64,000 bases of DNA from the human T2T-CHM13v2.0 reference genome, Homo sapiens, in the NCBI RefSeq assembly GCF_009914755.1, contig NC_060947.1. One strand, given 5' to 3'. The notes beneath the pieces were generated by a model. It was not told the DNA's origin, ran no database searches, and worked only from the letters and a program-made list of their open reading frames with translations. The translations under genes and the position numbers were made by a program. Positions 55,301 through 64,000 of the stretch are shown here, piece after piece (position 1 is the stretch's first letter; each line of letters starts with the position of its first letter).

Positions 55301-57206
55301 TTCTGGCCAGGAGGCTTCTCGCCACATTCAAATTGTTACAAAGTTCAGCTAGAGAATTCCTTCTCCCTGTGGAGTTTCACCCCCTGCTCCTCTGGCCGAT
55401 GGATCCCTGTGGTGCCAGGCAGGAATGGGCTGCTTGGGTCCCAGCAAGTTCCTGGGTCCTCTACCTCTGTATTTCACTCGGCTCTCTAACTTGACTCAGC
55501 TCCAGGTAAAGCTGGAAACTTCACCTGCAAACAGACCTTCAGCCTCTCCAGTGGGGGTGTGTCTTCAGGAGAGGAGGGTCTACCTTTCCCACTTCCGCAG
55601 TTGGGAAACTCACAGGAATTTTTTTTTTTTAATGTCAACAGATAATTCTACATCTTGGAAAACTGCCCTTCAGAAATGAGGGACAAATTAAGACATTCCA
55701 AGATAAATAATAGTCAACATTGCATGGGAATTTTTGGCCAGAACAATTAGGCAAGACAGAAACAAAAGGCATCCAAATTGGAAAGGAAGAAGTAATATTA
55801 TCTCTGTTTGCAGAGGATATGATCTTACAGGTAGAACACTGTAAATATTTCCCCAAAATCACTGTTAGAACTAGTAAATGAATTCAGCAAAAATGCAGAA
55901 TACAAAATCAACACACAAAAATGAGTTATGTATCTATATTGGCATTAAACAATCTGAAGAGGAAATTAAGAAAACAATTCCATTTACAGTAGCATTGAAA
56001 ATAATAATATTCTTAGAAATAAACTTAACCAAAGAGGTGAAAGACTTGTACACAGAAAACTACAAAATGTTGCTGAAAGAAGCTAAAGAAGACACAAATA
56101 GATGGAAATACATCCCATATTAATGAGTTGGAAGACTTAAAATTGTTAAGATGTCAATACTACCCAAAGTGATCTACAAATTCAATGCAATCCCTATTAT
56201 TAAATAAAATCCTAATTATGTTTTTGCAGAAATAGAAAAATCAACCCTAAAATTCATATGGAAATTCAAGGAATCGCAAAGAACCAAAACAATTTCGAAA
56301 AAAAAAAATTTTTTTTAACTTGGTGGTCTCTCACTTCCTGATTTCAAAACTACAAGCTACAGTAATCAAAACCATGTGGCATAAAGACAGACATACAGAC
56401 TAATGGAATAATAAAGAGCCCAGAAATAAACCCTTGCATATATGGTCAAATAATTCTCAACAAGGGTGCCAAGACCATCCAATGGGGAAAAGAAAGTCTT
56501 TTCAACAAATGGTGCTGGGAAAACTGTATGTCCACATAGAAAAAAATGAAGTTGGACCCTTACCTTGCACCATGCAAAAATTAATTCAAATTCAAATTAG
56601 ATTAAAGACCTAAATGTAAGAGCTAAAACTATAAAACTCTTAGAAGAAAACATAGGGGGAAATTTTCGTAACAAGATTTAGCAAAGATTTCTTGTATCTG
56701 ATACCAAAAGTACAGGCAACAATTTAAAATTATATGAGTTGGACTCCATCAAAATTAAAAACTTTTGTATATCAAAGGACACTATCAGCAGAGTGAAAAG
56801 GCAACCCACAGAATAGGAGAAAATATTTGCATATCATATATGTGATAAGGGACTAATATCCAGAATATATAAAGAACTCCTATGACTCAACAACAAAAAA
56901 AACAAACAACCTGATTTAAAAATGGGCAAAGAACCTGAACTTCAAAGAAGTTATACAAATGACCAGTAAACATATGAAAAGATGTTCAACATCACTAACC
57001 ACTAGAGAAATACAAATCAAAACCATAATGAAATACCATTTCACACCCCCTAGGATGGCTGTTATAAAAAACAGAAAATAACAAATGTTGGCAAGGATAT
57101 GGAGAAATTGGAACTCTTGTGCATTGCTGTAGGAATGTAAAATGGTGCAACCACTGTCAAAAAGAGTATGACAGTTTCTCAACAGATCAAACATAAAATT
57201 ACCATG

Positions 57207-57705
57207 TATATTAGTCAAGGTTCTCCACAGAGACAAAACCAATAGGCTATATATAGAGAGAAAGATACAAGAGGGGATTTATTAGGGGAATTGGCTCATG
57301 TGATTATGGAGGCTGATAAGTCCCACAACAGGCTTTCTGCAAATTGGAGACCTTAGAATGCCAGTAGCATGGCCCCATTCAAGTCTGAAGGCATGAGAAC
57401 CCAGGGGGCTGCTAGAGTCCAAAGGATAAAGAGCCTGGAGTGCTGATGTCTAAGGGCAGGAGAAGAGTGTATCCCACCTGCAAGAGCGAGAAAAATCTCT
57501 CTGCTATTTTTGTTCTATCCTGGCTCCAGCTGATTAGATGGTGCCTGCCCACATTGAGGGCAAATCTTCCCCACTTAGTCCACTCACACTCACATGCCAA
57601 TATCCTCTGTAAACACACTCACAGAAACACCAAAAAATAATGCTTCACCTGTTCTCTAGTTATTCCTTAATCCAGACAAGTTGACACCTAAAACTAATCA
57701 TCACA
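57207..57705 (-). mobile_element. Solo MLT2 LTR
   Basis: MLT2 termini; 5-bp TSD CCATG at 57202-57206 and 57706-57710. Confidence 0.9.
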
Positions 57706-58269
57706 CCATGGGACCTAGCAATTCCACTTCTGGGCACAAAAGAACTGAAAGCCGGGACTCAAAGAGATACTTGTATACCCATGTTCATAGCAGTATGATT
57801 CACAATGGCCAAAAGGTGAAAGCAACCCAAGTGTCCATTAACAGATGAATAAACAAAATGTGTATTTATATATAATATATATACAATAAAATATTCAGTC
57901 TTAAAAACTAAAGAAATTCTGACACATGGATAACATAGATGAACCTTAAAGACATTATGCTAAGTGAAATAAGTCAACCACAGAGGGACAAATATTGTAT
58001 GATTCTACTTACATGATGTACCTAGAGTAGTCAAATTCATAGAGACAGAAAGTAGAACAGTGGTTGTTAGGGGCTACGAGGAGGGGATGGGCAGTTAGCA
58101 TTTAATGGGTATGAAGTTTCATTTTGGGAAAATAAAAAAATTCTGGAGATGAATGGTGGAGACTGGCGCACAACAATATGAATGTACTTAATGACCCTGA
58201 ACTGTACACTTAAAAATGGCTAAAATGGTAAATTTTAAGTTATTTATATTTTACTACAAAAAAAAGGTA

Positions 58270-58370
58270 ACATACTAAAATGATCTCATGGGTTTTGTGA
58301 GAATCAAATGAGATCCATGTAGAGAAGCCTTGTAGTCTATATAGCCCTTCGCAAATGTTAGCTCTTCTTA
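58270..58370 (+). mobile_element. MIR, 3' half
   Basis: CTCATGGGTTTTGTGAGAATCAAATGAGAT...AAATGTTAGCT. Confidence 0.75.
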
Positions 58371-58396: not shown

Positions 58397-58543
58397 CTGA
58401 TACCATTATCCACACACTTTACCCAGCCACACTTACCCAACAGCACACTGTTTGAGTTTGAGTGCTATCTGGTGAATACTCATCTTCATTTTGCTAAACC
58501 CTGGATGCCATGTGCTAGCCAACAATATCCTATTGTTCTGGTT
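58397..58543 (-). pseudogene. Relic TRMT12/TYW2-like exon C
   Basis: Acceptor TTTTGTTTTGTTTAAG; PEQ*DIV..AHGIQGLAK*R*VSPDSTQT...LLGKCGWVKCVDNGIR versus PELWETVALALGVQRLAKRGRVSPDGTRT...LLGDHGWVEHVDNGIR. Confidence 0.9.
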
Positions 58544-58582
58544 CTTAAACAAAACAAAATCTCAAAGACTTCTTCCTCTTAC

Positions 58583-58774
58583 CTAGTTTTACCCAATGAT
58601 TGGCTTTGAAGCAGTCCTTATTCAGTAATAAGAGGTCACCATGCCATGGCCAAGAATAGGGCAAATCTTCCTCCAATTCAGTTGAACTCCCTGGCCGTCT
58701 AGCAAACAACATATCTCATAACACATCCTTTGAGCAGGTGAACAACTCTGAACCTTCTTTGAAGGAACAGGATT
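58583..58774 (-). pseudogene. Relic TRMT12/TYW2-like exon B
   Basis: Acceptor TTCTTTTATTCCTTTCCCAG and donor G|GTAAGA; NPVPSKKVQSCSPAQRMCYE...ELEEDLPYSWPWHGDLLLLNKDCFKANHW versus DPVPSKRAQGCSPAQKLCLE...ELEADLPRSWQRHGNLLLLSEDCFQAKQW; 7-nt deletion. Confidence 0.92.
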
Positions 58775-59042
58775 CTGGGAAAGGAATAAAAGAAATGCAT
58801 GCAGTGTGTATTGAGAATAAAATCTATTAGCTAAGAAATAAAAAATGAAAATGCTACAACATGATCAGTTTTGATGGACTAGACAACTCTCTGTAGAGTA
58901 GCCACAGGGCTGAACCCTCAAATATTCCCAGAAAGTATAGACATTGCTGTAGAACCAGCCTGATAATGCAGCAGTGCAGAACTTAAGAATGATATTTCTT
59001 TCTAGAAAGCAGACCAATTGATATCTTCATCCTGTTATTGAT

Positions 59043-59210
59043 CAGAATCCACGTCAGCATTCAGGTGCTCTCTGGCTACAAGTTTCCTTAGCTCTTGCAG
59101 GCGCTGCTCATTGAAGATTTCTCTTAACACAGGTAATGCTACCAGTCTCATCTGGCACCTTTTTCATGCAATGACAACTATCCAGGAGTTGCTGCCTTTC
59201 CAGATATCCC
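59043..59210 (-). pseudogene. Relic TRMT12/TYW2-like exon A
   Basis: Acceptor ...TCTCGCAG, then GYLERQQLLDSCHCMKKVPDET/VALPVLREIFNEQRLQELRKLVA/..ST*MLTWIL versus TRMT12 EYLQRQKLFDTQHRVEKMPDGSVALPVLGETLPEQHLQELRNRVAPGSPCMLTQLP. Confidence 0.88.
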
Positions 59211-60234
59211 CTGCGAGACCAATGAGGGATTTTATTCCATGACTCTTTGAAGAGGTTCAAACATGGATCAAACATGAAGTAGTATGTACCCCAGCCTTAG
59301 AAATTTAATCTTTTATGACTGGGAGAAAGAACCCAAGTCTCTGTGCCTTCACAGTCTTGAATATCTCTGCTTGTTTCACTTACGTTTACCTCACTCAAGA
59401 TTCTTAGTGTCATCGACATGACTGGTTAAGAACTCAGGACTTTTCAACAAAGTTTTCTGCCAGTGCCCCACAAATCATGACTGTGGTCTCCCAAATTCTT
59501 TGATTCTCCACTAGGTTCCCTTTCTCCTCCATTCAAAGCCCCAAATAACATTTACCCTATATATTTAGTCCCGTTTTTTGTAGAAATGCTTCTTTGCTTG
59601 TGTTCCCCCTACCTTTTCATATCATACCTACATCGTTAACTGAGGCTCAGTCATAACATCAACAACAGCATGAAACATCCCACCTTCTGTCTTCATTTTG
59701 CTATAAACTGGAGGCAAAGGAAATGCTGTCACTCAGGGAGTATATCAATGAAGGGAAAGACTCTCACAAGACAGGCACTGAGGCAGGAGTCACTAGCACA
59801 CAGTGTATAAGTGAAATCTAAATATAAAAAAGCAAGCACTTGGGATACATCCCTTGCACACACCTCCTCTTTTATAACCAGTAGAGTGAAGTTGGTTGCT
59901 GAAGTCACAGAATCAATAGTCTATTTCCCACAGACGGCTGATGATAGCAGAACAAGCCCTGGCTAAGTCCCCCACCCTTTTCTTGAGTAGCTCATTGTTA
60001 TGAGCCACGGACCCACCATCACCAGGTCACATGTTCTGTACTCTTTCCTAAAAACAGTGACAAAATATGCTGAGCCATCCATATTTCCTCAGTTACATTG
60101 AGAGGCAGGAGATATAACAATTAAGCAGTCTCTGGAGCCAGAGCAACCTGAGCTCAAACCATGCCTTAGCTTGCTTGTTGTGGGACCTAGGCAAAGTTAC
60201 TGAAACTTCTTTAGACATGTTTATCAATAAAATG

Positions 60235-61761: not shown

Positions 61762-62046
61762 TTTTGGAGATGGAGTTTCGCTCTTGTTGCCCAGGCTGGA
61801 GTGCAATGGCAGATCTCGGATCACCGCAACATCCATCTCCCGGGTTCAAGCGATTCTCTGGCCTCAGCCTCCTGAGCAGCTGGGATTACAGGCATGCGCC
61901 ACCACGCCCGGCTAATTTTGTATTTTTAGTAGAAAAGGGGTTCTCCATGTTGGCCAGGCTGGTCTCGAACTCCCGACCTCAGGTGATGCGCCCGCCTCGG
62001 CCTCCCAAAGTGTTGGCATTACAGGCATGAGCCACCGCGCCCGGCC
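61762..62046 (-). mobile_element. AluSp-like SINE
   Basis: TSD CATATACTTTTA at 61750-61761 and 62047-62058; very short tail. Confidence 0.95.
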
Positions 62047-62749
62047 CATATACTTTTAATACATGTGGAATTAATAAAAACGTCAATGCCTCCAATTCCG
62101 TGGCTATTTTACCGTCTTCCTTTTTCGGACAAGTCCCTCAAAGGTAGCGCTCTTGGCTCCTTCCTTTGCTTATCCCCTAACCCTGTCCTCCTGAGGTGCC
62201 CCCTGGATTTCCTCCAACCCCGGCAGGGTCTGCCTTTCCGGGATGATACAACGACCTGCCCTGCATGCCATATCCCAGGCGCGTGGGCACCAAAGTGTGG
62301 AAAAACCGATGAATGACGTTTTCTGTTTCCGATACTCTGCCTGCCAGAATCCCCTGCCGCACCGCCCCACCACGAAGCACATGGAACCCACGGACTACAC
62401 GAGGACAGAGGTCTGTTCTCCCTTTACCTCTCCCATTTCTTTAACTATGCTTCTCTCGGCTGGCATGCCCTTTCCTCATCTCACTCCACACACGAACAGG
62501 TTTAGCAAATAATATGCACGCTGCTGGGACGGGCCCAAGCATTTCCCTCCCTTGATAGGGCGGAACTAAAATGCAAGCCCCACAGTTGTCAGCAAAGGAC
62601 TTCCCTGTTACCATGGTAAAGCCGCTGCGCCTTTATTGTGGTTGAGGAGTACTTGCATCAACCTAAGAGAAAATTAATAAGAAGGAAGTCTGCAGGCTGA
62701 AACCCTTCAAATTAGCCTGGACTCGCCTGCATCTGGCTCGGAACAGAGT

Positions 62750-63200
62750 TAATCTCAGGAGTGAGAATATAGCCCTCCGGTGGACGCAACTCGCGCCTGC
62801 GGCTAACAGAATGTCTCCAGGGGAGGGGCTCTGCGTCCGTTCCGCCCAGGCCCTTCCGGCTCACGCGCCGTACGGAAGCGTGCTCAGCGCTGGGCTTGTG
62901 CTCCGTACGGAAGTGTGCTTTGGCGCACCGGAAGCCGACTCAACAGAGCTATGGCGGGTTTGACTGTGAGAGACCCAGCGGTGGATCGTTCTCTACGTTC
63001 TGTGTTCGGTGAGAGGAATTCGTTGTAGTCAAGCTTCGGGGAGGGACTCCCCTCTGCACCTTCTATCTCATGAATCGCTACCGGAGCCGCTGACGGTTCG
63101 GACGTGCAGTTCTCCCTGCTTATCCTGTAGGGCGTCCAACCTGGTGGACTCATGAGCAAAGAGATATTCCCATTCTGCCGAGGTCTCGTAGGCTTTCCGC
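62750..63200. promoter_or_regulatory. CSTF2: CpG-rich, TATA-less CSTF2 promoter with a GC box and four ETS (CGGAAG) motifs
   Basis: CCGCCC at 62842; CTTCCGG at 62853; CGGAAG at 62873, 62908 and 62929; high CpG density. Confidence 0.85.
62951..63008 (+). CDS. CSTF2: CSTF2 (CstF-64) coding exon 1; intron 1 runs to the end of the window
   Basis: Translates MAGLTVRDPAVDRSLRSVF plus G, followed by donor GTGAGA at 63009. The intron excludes the intronless retrogene CSTF2T. Confidence 0.96.
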
Positions 63201-64000
63201 AATATCAGTGGGGAAGTTAGACTAGCGTTCAGCTTCTGTGCGTTTCTCCTTTCATGAGCTTCAATTATTCTCTAGAGGAGAAGGCGCACGGCAACAGCTC
63301 CTCACTGTCCCGTACTACTTCTCATCCTCTGCCCCAGAATACAGACTATATGCTGAGGGTATAGATCCTAGTGTCCACTTACTGTCCTCTCCTAAGGACT
63401 TTCATCCTTTGCTTTTTATCTGTAACATTTTAGTGCATCAATAGTGGTAGCGGCCACCTGGTGTCCTGAGATGGCTTGTAAGTGAATGAATGAATGAACT
63501 ATTAAGATCTCCTCAGAGGAATTTTAAAAAGGATCGAAACGATTCTGAATTATCTTTTTGGCTGAAATAAGTTGTTTTTAAAAATACGTGTGATTATTTT
63601 AGAGTACCATTTGAAAGGGACATGACAAAGTAGTTCAGAATACTTTTTAAACATCTTTCACTACATTCATCGTCATTCTCCCTTAAATGTTGTATGTGTG
63701 GAAATACATAGGAACCTGTTTTAAAAATTATATTAAATAACATTGATATTTTTTGTAGTCACTGATGAGACTTGCAGATCTTTAGGTAAATACCAGTGCC
63801 AAAGTATTTATTTGCACCAAAGTTAAGGAAAATCTAACACGTGTCAGATCAGTCTGAGAACTAACATTTGAGAGTACCTACACATTTTGTATTTAGTTTC
63901 AGTGGTATATTTCCTTTGTTAAGAGGTCTGAAGAAATACAATGGAATTGGGATTGGAGAACACTATTTTGAGTCTTATATTTGATGATATAAGTTTACTT

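What the first reader, a model, noticed from the sequence alone, without database searches (positions are those of the whole stretch)
58397..59210. Fossil intron-containing TRMT12 (TYW2) gene: likely the dead parent of the intronless autosomal gene
Seen: three collinear minus-strand segments (59210-59043, 58774-58583, 58543-58397), each preceded by a pyrimidine tract and AG. Intron phases join correctly (phase 0 for A-B; G|AA, phase 1, for B-C). Their translation matches about 170 consecutive residues of TRMT12 as I recall it. Lengths of 168, 192 and 147 nt compare with 169, 199 and 151 expected, and the visible frameshifts explain the differences exactly. Arg codons have become TGA and two donors read AT instead of GT. 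Known: human TRMT12 (wybutosine synthesis on tRNA-Phe) is intronless on chr8 and, as I recall, has been described as an orphan retrogene. Inference: this is the unprocessed ancestral locus, lost after an out-of-X retrocopy took over. The ORF track misses it entirely; I cannot tell whether this remnant is already annotated.
Basis: partly seen in the sequence, partly recalled or inferred. Interest (0 to 1): 0.92.

Follow-up and report, generated by a model that had tools for sequence, protein, structure and literature searches.

The report
Dead X-linked parent of TRMT12
This stretch of the human X chromosome holds the decayed first four exons, introns still in place, of the original TRMT12 gene, whose job is now done by an intronless copy on chromosome 8.

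Summary
Human TRMT12, read from chr8 of the same assembly, aligns to the minus strand at 58397-59696 in four collinear pieces covering codons 10-207. The spliced-alignment score is 317, against a maximum of 115 in 120 shuffles. DNA identity to the chr8 coding sequence is 73.5%. There are 4 in-frame stops, 9 indels, and AT instead of GT at 2 of 4 donors. The three gaps (417, 268 and 39 nt) have no counterpart in the chr8 coding sequence. The two that were searched (the 268-nt gap and 421 nt spanning the first) are single-copy in the genome.

No other TRMT12-like place exists in the genome except a chr14 paralogue. In chicken the published gene order is CSTF2, TRMT12, SYTL4, the same interval. 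Oddities in bird, reptile, frog and fish gene models fall at or within three residues of all four relic exon ends. In a tree the relic lies inside Theria but outside all eutherian TRMT12.

The catalytic half is undetectable across 94 kb. TRMT12 was already published as an X-derived orphan retrogene, but that paper reported no human trace of its parent. The reading is supported. It is a modest new example of a known kind. Whether GENCODE or Ensembl list it could not be checked.

The parts
59628..59696 (-). Relic exon 1 (coding part). ATG at 59696-59694. Aligns to chr8 CDS nt 28-101 (codons 10-34.2). 69 nt against 74, with one 5-nt deletion.
   Evidence: 51 of 69 nt are identical. 0 of 1000 shuffles reach its score. 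It was not recovered by the vertebrate profile HMM (not among the 40 best rows).
59211..59627 (-). Intron 1 (417 nt), phase 2 in the Arg34 codon (AG|G). GT donor at 59627-59626, AG acceptor at 59212-59211.
   Evidence: The stretch 59213-59633 is single-copy in the genome.
59043..59210 (-). Relic exon 2. Aligns to CDS nt 102-270 (codons 34.3-90). 168 nt against 169. Indels +1, +1, -1, -2. In-frame TGA at 59063-59061 (codon 84).
   Evidence: A window ORF here hits Pfam TYW2_N with E 4.6e-5.
58775..59042 (-). Intron 2 (268 nt), phase 0. The donor reads AT. The acceptor has a strong pyrimidine tract (0.90).
   Evidence: Single-copy in the genome.
58583..58774 (-). Relic exon 3. Aligns to CDS nt 271-469 (codons 91-157.1). 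192 nt against 199, with one 7-nt deletion.
   Evidence: Profile HMM E 2.7e-12 and 3.4e-7 on its two frames. Pfam TYW2_N_2 E 1.4e-3. Genome-wide E 3.6e-5.
58544..58582 (-). Intron 3, only 39 nt, phase 1. GT donor, AG acceptor.
   Evidence: A turtle-like protein (P0097) carries an in-frame 27-residue insert at exactly this codon, which fits a retained 81-nt intron.
58397..58543 (-). Relic exon 4. Aligns to CDS nt 470-620 (codons 157.2-207.2). 147 nt against 151. Indels +1, -1, -4. In-frame stops at 58532-58530 (TAG, codon 161), 58488-58486 (TGA, codon 176) and 58482-58480 (TGA, codon 178). The donor after 58397 reads AT.
   Evidence: Profile HMM E 7.4e-4.
57705..58270 (.). Old interspersed repeat starting about 127 nt downstream of exon 4. 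It is not part of the gene. It marks where recognisable TRMT12 sequence ends.
   Evidence: 17605 first-look candidates, 40 scored, and many copies across the chromosomes at 74-78% identity over this span.

Best explanation
This is the unprocessed, long-dead remnant of the ancestral X-linked TRMT12 (TYW2) gene. It sits in its original place between SYTL4 and CSTF2.

Shown: four exons (codons 10-207, the two N-terminal TYW2 domains) survive in order on the minus strand, separated by three introns. They are riddled with stops, frameshifts and two lost splice donors. The half that encodes the catalytic domain cannot be found.

Inferred: an mRNA of this gene was reverse-transcribed and inserted on an autosome (human chr8) in an early therian or stem eutherian. 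That intronless copy took over wybutosine synthesis on tRNA-Phe. The X copy then drifted neutrally from about that time. The relic is not expected to do anything today.
For: (1) Homology. The spliced alignment scores 317, or 304 through exon 4. In 120 shuffles the mean was 77.7, the sd 9.4 and the maximum 115. The plus strand scored 75 and the reversed protein 74. DNA identity to the chr8 CDS is 421 of 573 aligned nt, 73.5%. At protein level 106 of 182 comparable codons match human.

(2) Uniqueness. A genome-wide search found 5 matches among 18 scored candidates: chr8 itself, two pieces of this locus (E 3.6e-5 and 0.019), a chr14 paralogue, and one chr16 hit at E 1.6.

(3) Intron-like gaps. 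Similarity to the CDS stops at nt 101|102, 270|271 and 469|470 and resumes after 417, 268 and 39 nt. Two of the intervening stretches are single-copy. All three acceptors are AG, and 2 of 4 donors are GT.

(4) Same intron places elsewhere. Partial models of emu, cassowary, tinamou and duck start at residue 37. A gecko model lacks residues 91-105. P0097 has a 27-residue insert between residues 156 and 157. Its first residues (G-K-R) fit GT AAG AG, like the relic's intron start. Models from Cyanistes and Labeo switch from unaligned residues to homology at residue 157. Models of two birds and a frog, plus four unnamed proteins, start at residue 207 or 208. A fish model starts at 206 after 3 unaligned residues. 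Eutherian models show no anomaly at these places.

(5) Synteny. The chicken order is CSTF2, TRMT12, SYTL4 (PMC10035218). A stickleback QTL interval lists Trmt12 with Sytl4 (PMC4880927). A gull TYW2 protein is filed as an SYTL4 isoform (P0148).

(6) Age. The relic is 55-61% identical to eutherians, 55-58% to marsupials, 50-53% to monotremes and 45-50% to sauropsids and amphibians. In the ML tree it lies inside Theria (98/95) and outside the eutherian clade (100/99). Joining it to human costs 23.5 lnL (p-AU 0.030).

(7) Neutral decay. The relic keeps the inferred therian residue at 48 of 66 near-invariant positions and 36 of 50 variable ones (Fisher p = 1.0).

(8) The chr8 gene is one 448-codon ORF. 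It is published as an X-derived orphan retrogene (PMC3548309; PMC4772013).
Against: Intron positions in non-eutherians were inferred from protein-model anomalies, not read from genomic DNA. The intron 1 evidence is 3 residues off the boundary. The gecko deletion can be placed at 90-104 or 91-105.

Intron 3 is only 39 nt, too short to have been spliced as it stands, so a later deletion has to be assumed.

Codons 208-448 are missing. The vertebrate profile found nothing better than E 1.1 in 94 kb running past the SYTL4 start. PF02475 has no chrX hit.

The Pfam hits on single ORFs are below the gathering scores: 24.0 against 27.8 bits, and 19.2 against 27.7. The genome-wide PF25133 scan did not list this locus. 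Exon 1 was missed by the profile HMM.

The tree puts the relic weakly with marsupials (90/72, branch 0.014) rather than next to the eutherian genes. The eutherian placement is only just not rejected (lnL difference 0.73, p-AU 0.056).

dN/dS against chr8 is 0.42 (0.28-0.63). This does not separate early from late death.

No other eutherian genome could be examined.
Confidence: 0.9

Rival explanations
1. It is a processed pseudogene: a retrocopy of the chr8 TRMT12 mRNA that landed on the X and was later broken up by three insertions.
For: The gene family does retropose, since chr8 TRMT12 is itself a retrocopy. The 39-nt gap is a multiple of three and could be a small insertion.
Against: The 268-nt gap and the 421 nt spanning the first gap are single-copy, so they are not recognisable mobile elements. 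All three gaps end in AG. They fall where non-eutherian gene models show exon ends. The locus is the ancestral TRMT12 position in chicken. The relic branches outside all eutherian TRMT12, and a clade with human is rejected (lnL difference 23.5, p-AU 0.030). No 3' half or tail is present.
Confidence: 0.03
2. It is a partial DNA-level duplicate of the intron-containing parent gene, not the parent locus itself. The true parent has been deleted without trace.
For: Only the 5' half is present. That pattern is typical of truncated segmental duplicates.
Against: It lies in exactly the interval, CSTF2 to SYTL4, that holds TRMT12 in chicken. It is on the same strand as SYTL4, which fits the gull model that merges the two genes. 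The genome holds no second TRMT12-like relic.
Confidence: 0.04
3. It is the parent's relic, but part of it has been reused, for example as a non-coding transcript or a regulatory element near the CSTF2 promoter.
For: It lies head to head with CSTF2, 3.2 kb from its first exon. RefSeq marks enhancers elsewhere in the interval (hub table). The CHMP1B parent pseudogene is reported as weakly transcribed (PMC3548309).
Against: No RefSeq feature overlaps 58397-59696 (hub table). CpG observed/expected is 0.14-0.23 here, against 0.63-0.81 at the CSTF2 promoter. Residue loss is the same at conserved and variable positions. No expression data were available.
Confidence: 0.03
4. The similarity is due to chance.
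For: None beyond the low complexity of short matches.
Against: 0 of 120 shuffles reach a third of the score (z about 24). Five profile-HMM hits are collinear on one strand, with a gap of three orders of magnitude in E-value to the next hit.
Confidence: 0

Closest known systems
Pseudogenised X-linked parent of the orphan retrogene CHMP1B in human (Ciomborowska et al. 2013, PMC3548309; passages seen)
   Same: It is the intron-containing remnant of an X-linked parent whose autosomal retrocopy now carries the function. Only some exons survive, with frameshifts.
   Different: The paper places the CHMP1B parent's death within primates (ancestor of Old and New World monkeys, all available primate genomes fragmentary). 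That parent is still intact in rodents and is still weakly transcribed in human. The TRMT12 relic looks as old as the eutherian stem, lacks its whole 3' half, and has no known transcript. The same paper says traces of the parent were found for CHMP1B only.
Unitary (unprocessed, no local functional counterpart) pseudogenes, as defined by Zhang et al. 2010; cited in PMC3548309, passage seen
   Same: It is an unprocessed relic at the ancestral locus with stops, frameshifts and lost splice sites.
   Different: The function is not lost from the genome. A retrocopy elsewhere supplies it, so pipelines that call unitary pseudogenes by the absence of any paralogue would skip it.
Out-of-X retrogenes with a surviving parent. 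The neighbour CSTF2 and its autosomal retrocopy CSTF2T are the example I recall (recalled, not tested here).
   Same: A broadly needed X-linked gene is exported to an autosome by retroposition.
   Different: In the usual case the X parent stays alive and the copy is testis-biased. Here the parent died, and the copy is reported as ubiquitously expressed (PMC3548309).
Processed pseudogenes in the same window (PPIAP89, RAD21P1; hub table)
   Same: They are dead copies of genes that function elsewhere.
   Different: By annotation those are intronless retrocopies of living parents. Here the direction is reversed: the dead copy has the introns and the living one does not.

Membership tests
Unprocessed pseudogene that is the parent of an orphan retrogene | Significant, specific homology to the functional gene | tested here: met
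   Score 317 against a shuffle maximum of 115. Genome-wide E 3.6e-5 for one exon alone.
Unprocessed pseudogene that is the parent of an orphan retrogene | Disabling lesions | tested here: met
   4 in-frame stops, 9 indels of which 8 shift the frame by a non-multiple of three, 2 of 4 donors AT, and codons 208-448 absent.
Unprocessed pseudogene that is the parent of an orphan retrogene | Introns kept, at the positions of the ancestral gene | tested here: met
   Gaps of 417, 268 and 39 nt sit at CDS nt 101|102, 270|271 and 469|470. Non-eutherian gene-model anomalies fall at residues 37, 90/91, 156|157 and 207/208. The evidence is indirect, because no outgroup genomic DNA was available.
Unprocessed pseudogene that is the parent of an orphan retrogene | Lies at the ancestral syntenic position | tested here: met
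   The chicken gene list reads NOX1, CSTF2, TRMT12, SYTL4, SRPX2 (PMC10035218). This compares with human SRPX2, SYTL4, relic, CSTF2, NOX1 (hub table). The chicken order comes from a published table, not from my own alignment.
Unprocessed pseudogene that is the parent of an orphan retrogene | The functional copy is an intronless retrocopy elsewhere and has no other multi-exon paralogue of its own kind | tested here: met
   There is a single 448-codon ORF on chr8. The only other relative in the genome is the chr14 paralogue. Absence of UTR introns was not tested.
Unprocessed pseudogene that is the parent of an orphan retrogene | The split from the retrogene predates the radiation of the species that share the retrogene | tested here: met
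   The relic lies outside the eutherian clade (100/99) and inside Theria (98/95). In the 152-row tree its sister group is the four marsupials.
TYW2/TRMT12 protein family (Pfam PF25132, PF25133, PF02475) | TYW2_N domain (PF25132) | tested here: inconclusive
   E 4.6e-5 but 24.0 bits against a cut-off of 27.8 on one ORF piece. The genome scan gave 21.3 and 20.8 bits for two pieces. The domain is split by a frameshift.
TYW2/TRMT12 protein family (Pfam PF25132, PF25133, PF02475) | TYW2_N_2 domain (PF25133) | tested here: inconclusive
   E 1.4e-3 and 19.2 bits against a cut-off of 27.7. The locus is not listed in the genome-wide scan.
TYW2/TRMT12 protein family (Pfam PF25132, PF25133, PF02475) | Catalytic TRM5-TYW2 transferase domain (PF02475) | tested here: not met
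   No chrX match. Nothing better than E 1.1 in 94 kb with a vertebrate TYW2 profile. The relic is a fragment of a family member's gene, not a possible enzyme.
Processed pseudogene | Contiguous copy of the mRNA without introns | tested here: not met
   Three interruptions, of which the two searched are single-copy, lie at exon-end positions.

The most novel reading that the evidence does not exclude
This is the first physical trace of the lost parent of TRMT12. It is absent from RefSeq and from every paper I could search, and it contradicts the published statement that no trace remains.

The relic sits with the marsupial (parent-type) genes and outside every eutherian TRMT12. It has also lost conserved and variable residues at the same rate. 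The data therefore allow two bolder readings. The retrocopy may have arisen at or before the marsupial-eutherian split, with the parent dying almost at once. Alternatively, the retrogene may have gone through a burst of protein change (stem branch 0.146 per site) after it moved. Shared lesions in the relic would give a direct way to date parent loss across eutherians.
Probability: 0.3. Interest if true: 0.55.

Novelty: new member of a known kind. Interest (0 to 1): 0.45.

Why it matters
Orphan retrogenes are cases where a copy replaced its parent. The order and timing of events are usually inferred only from which species have which copy.

A surviving relic of the parent turns that inference into something measurable. 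Lesions shared between eutherian orders would date the death of the X copy relative to the retroposition. The relic also fixes the ancestral exon structure, and it proves the out-of-X direction for TRMT12.

It shows as well that the 2013 catalogue's 'no similarity can be found' was a limit of method, so relics of other orphan retrogenes' parents may also be recoverable.

Practically, it is an unannotated pseudogene in RefSeq that protein-to-genome pipelines may hit. It has no expected bearing on TRMT12 function or disease.

Tried and rejected
(1) My spliced aligner with an intron penalty of 12 chained noise: 820 on the minus strand against 667 on the plus strand. I raised the penalty to 50.

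(2) At penalty 50 the aligner added two further 'exons', at 35217-35049 and 13453-12889. Each gave a net gain of only 5 and 8, with many frameshifts. The second lies inside a stretch that NCBI masks as repeat. I rejected both as noise.

(3) I searched for the catalytic-domain exons in three ways. These were tblastn, PF02475 genome-wide, and a 24-species vertebrate profile against 6051 ORF pieces of chrX:99170001-99264000. Nothing was found.

(4) The turtle isoform pairs P0082/P0083 and P0084/P0086 differ only at the N-terminus, so they say nothing about internal introns. P0095 against P0084 reveals a junction near residue 295, beyond the relic.

(5) dN/dS of relic against chr8 is 0.42 (0.28-0.63), too wide to date the death.

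(6) In one search I set the end of exon 1 two bases too far, taking in the GT. This produced a spurious +2 indel. It is corrected. The codon translation used is unchanged by it.

(7) I looked for a living parent-type gene in eutherians among 151 full-length relatives. None groups with the relic. Only the best 120 hits of each of two searches were seen.

(8) Literature searches run: TRMT12 + retrogene; TRMT12/pseudogene/CSTF2; orphan retrogene/TRMT12; TYW2 + retrocop; TRMT12/SYTL4/NOX1/XKRX; TRMT12P, 0 papers; TYW2/pseudogene/intronless. None describes this relic.

(9) Earlier findings of this scan were not open. The supplement of PMC3548309 is a PDF that cannot be read here. [quoted passage not shown]
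Full report
**What is there**

The window is T2T-CHM13 chrX:99200001-99264000 (hub table). I took the human TRMT12 protein from the same assembly rather than from memory. A window ORF found a 448-codon single ORF on chr8. tblastn of that protein against the window gave five top hits, all on the minus strand and in protein order. They cover residues 6-30, 34-54, 57-79, 91-121 and 123 to about 207, between 59708 and about 58400. The joint E-values are 1.35e-16 and 1.23e-05. Every other hit had E of 0.58 or more and was scattered on both strands.

I wrote a protein-to-DNA aligner that allows frameshifts and introns. It scored 317, or 304 through the fourth exon. In 120 shuffles the mean was 77.7, the sd 9.4 and the maximum 115. 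The plus strand scored 75 and the reversed protein 74. Across the whole genome the only TRMT12-like places are:
- chr8 itself;
- this locus (E 3.6e-5 and 0.019 for two separate exons);
- a chr14 locus that also matches PF02475 and PF25133, presumably the paralogue TRMT5 (that name is recalled, not tested);
- one chr16 hit at noise level, E 1.6.

**Anatomy**

At DNA level the relic aligns to the chr8 coding sequence in four blocks whose ends are exact.

| Exon | Window | CDS nt | Length (relic / CDS) | Indels |
|---|---|---|---|---|
| 1 | 59696-59628 | 28-101 | 69 / 74 | -5 |
| 2 | 59210-59043 | 102-270 | 168 / 169 | +1, +1, -1, -2 |
| 3 | 58774-58583 | 271-469 | 192 / 199 | -7 |
| 4 | 58543-58397 | 470-620 | 147 / 151 | +1, -1, -4 |

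Identity is 421 of 573 aligned nt, or 73.5%. It starts with an ATG that aligns with the start codon shared by most mammalian TRMT12 proteins (human Met10). It ends on the AG of the split Arg34 codon, followed by GT. Its score was reached by 0 of 1000 shuffles within the 3 kb upstream of exon 2. The vertebrate profile did not pick it up.

Read in the aligned frame, there are four stops: codon 84 (TGT to TGA), codon 161 (TGG to TAG), codon 176 (CGA to TGA) and codon 178 (CGG to TGA). The donors after exons 2 and 4 read AT. The donors after exons 1 and 3 read GT. All three acceptors are AG, but only the acceptor of exon 3 has a pyrimidine tract that is rare in this window.

**Are the gaps introns?**

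The three gaps measure 417, 268 and 39 nt and have no counterpart in the chr8 CDS. Two stretches were searched against the genome and are single-copy, so they are not recognisable mobile-element insertions: the 268-nt gap, and 421 nt spanning the first gap. That search skips very common words.

I had no genomic DNA of non-eutherians. I used imperfect gene models in the protein database as a proxy, because retained introns, missed first exons and wrong acceptors mark exon ends. The results, in human numbering, are:
- **Intron 1 (codon 34).** Partial models of emu, cassowary, tinamou and duck start at residue 37. A screamer model switches from unrelated residues to homology at residue 36.
- **Intron 2 (90|91).** A gecko model lacks 15 residues that can be placed at 91-105.
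- **Intron 3 (codon 157).** An unnamed protein 89% identical to a tortoise TYW2 (P0097) has an in-frame 27-residue insert exactly between residues 156 and 157. The insert begins G-K-R, which fits G|GT AAG AG, the same start as the relic's intron. It ends S-L-P-G, which fits a pyrimidine tract plus CAG|G. Models from Cyanistes and Labeo switch to homology at residue 157.
- **Intron 4 (codon 207).** Models of a tinamou, a nightjar and a frog, plus four unnamed proteins, begin at residue 207 or 208. A fish model aligns from residue 206 after 3 unaligned residues.

The P0097 insert implies an intron of 81 nt. If so, the odd 39-nt gap in the relic is a short ancestral intron that lost about 40 nt, not an artefact. 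A further junction near residue 295 shows in a turtle, two ratites and a skink. It lies beyond the relic. Eutherian models show anomalies only between residues 347 and 429. This evidence is indirect but convergent.

**Place in the genome**

In human the order is SRPX2, SYTL4 (minus strand), relic (minus strand), CSTF2 (plus strand), NOX1, XKRX (hub table). A chicken selection-scan paper lists the genes of chromosome 4 at 4.87-5.36 Mb as ARL13A, XKRX, NOX1, CSTF2, TRMT12, SYTL4, SRPX2, TSPAN6 (PMC10035218, Tables 2 and 3, passages seen). A stickleback QTL interval lists Xpnpep2, Trmt12, Zdhhc9, Sash3 and Sytl4 (PMC4880927, table passage seen). A gull TYW2 protein is filed by NCBI as 'synaptotagmin-like protein 4 isoform X10' (P0148). 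That fits two adjacent genes on one strand, as in human. The relic therefore sits where the live multi-exon gene sits in birds.

**Age and mode of decay**

Over 182 comparable codons the relic is 55-61% identical to nine eutherians. It is 55-58% identical to four marsupials, 50-53% to two monotremes, and 45-50% to sauropsids and amphibians.

In an ML tree of 25 rows the relic lies inside Theria (98/95) and outside the eutherian TRMT12 clade (100/99). It is weakly joined to the marsupials (90/72, branch 0.014). The 152-row tree gives the same sister group. Forcing the relic together with human costs 23.5 lnL (p-AU 0.030). Forcing it next to all eutherians costs 0.73 lnL (p-AU 0.056), which is not rejected. 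So it is not a young copy of the chr8 gene. Whether the retroposition came just after or just before the marsupial split is not resolved.

There are 116 positions where the eutherian and marsupial consensus agree. At these the relic keeps the residue at 48 of 66 near-invariant positions and at 36 of 50 variable ones (Fisher p = 1.0). This is what neutral decay from about the time of the split predicts. dN/dS against chr8 is 0.42 (0.28-0.63) and does not add to this.

**What is missing**

Nothing corresponding to codons 208-448, the catalytic domain, is detectable. The evidence is:
- no tblastn hit;
- no PF02475 match on chrX;
- with a profile of 24 vertebrate TYW2 proteins against six-frame pieces of chrX:99170001-99264000, which runs past the SYTL4 start, the five relic pieces score E of 7.4e-4 or better and the next best piece scores E 1.1.

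An old interspersed repeat starts about 127 nt after exon 4. Since the 5' exons are still easy to see, a deletion of the 3' half is the likelier explanation. This is inference.

**Mechanism**

Shown:
- an intron-bearing, disabled 5' half of TRMT12 at the ancestral locus;
- an intact intronless ORF on chr8.

Inferred:
- retroposition of the X-linked gene's mRNA to an autosome in an early therian or stem eutherian;
- take-over of function by the copy;
- neutral decay of the parent.

The usual rationale for export off the X, escape from meiotic silencing, is background knowledge and was not tested here. The relic shows no sign of present function. No RefSeq feature overlaps it, and CpG observed/expected there is 0.14-0.23 (hub table).

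**Comparison with what is known**

TRMT12 is number 24 of the 25 human orphan retrogenes of Ciomborowska et al. [quoted passage not shown] Carelli et al. list it too (PMC4772013, section 13 read whole and passages seen).

[quoted passage not shown] Seven full-text searches found no description of this relic. RefSeq has no model here (hub table). I could not read the supplements of either paper, and I could not consult GENCODE or Ensembl. The evolutionary story is therefore known. The relic itself appears to be undescribed, with that caveat.

**Verdict**

It is a new member of a known kind: an unprocessed relic of the parent of an orphan retrogene, and in the searched literature the second human case after CHMP1B. 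Interest is moderate. It is a neat, testable fossil that corrects a published negative and would let the loss be dated. It does not change the picture of TRMT12 evolution.

Noticed in passing
P0148 (protein database): A 424-aa gull protein with all three TYW2 Pfam domains is named 'synaptotagmin-like protein 4 isoform X10 [Larus michahellis]'. The gene model probably merges TYW2 with its neighbour SYTL4.
   Followed up: partly
P0097 (protein database): An unnamed turtle-like TYW2 protein carries an in-frame 27-residue insert between residues 156 and 157 (human numbering). It reads like a retained 81-nt intron, so this intron is unusually short in a sauropsid too.
   Followed up: yes
window 57051-58270: An old interspersed repeat family lies directly downstream of relic exon 4. 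One search gave 17605 first-look candidates and 74-78% identity over 57705-58270. Its continuation at 57051-57205 matches at 71-82%. The two parts are split by about 500 nt, of which 57270-57705 matches one chr12 place at 78%. I recall it as resembling a LINE-1 3' end. The family name was not tested.
   Followed up: partly
window 62001-63500: A CpG-rich stretch (GC 0.49-0.55, CpG observed/expected 0.63-0.81) lies at the CSTF2 first exon. The relic's exon 1 is 3.2 kb away and head to head with it, in CpG-poor DNA. A shared bidirectional promoter for the ancestral pair is conceivable but untested.
   Followed up: no
L002:1138-2481 (chr8): The human TRMT12 ORF starts 9 codons upstream of the start codon shared by the relic and by most other mammalian TRMT12 proteins in the alignment.
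   Followed up: no
alignment A1 and tree: The stem of the eutherian retrogene clade is long (0.146 changes per site over codons 10-206). It carries eutherian-only residues, such as Trp114 and Glu50, that the relic lacks. The retrogene therefore changed noticeably after it left the X.
   Followed up: partly
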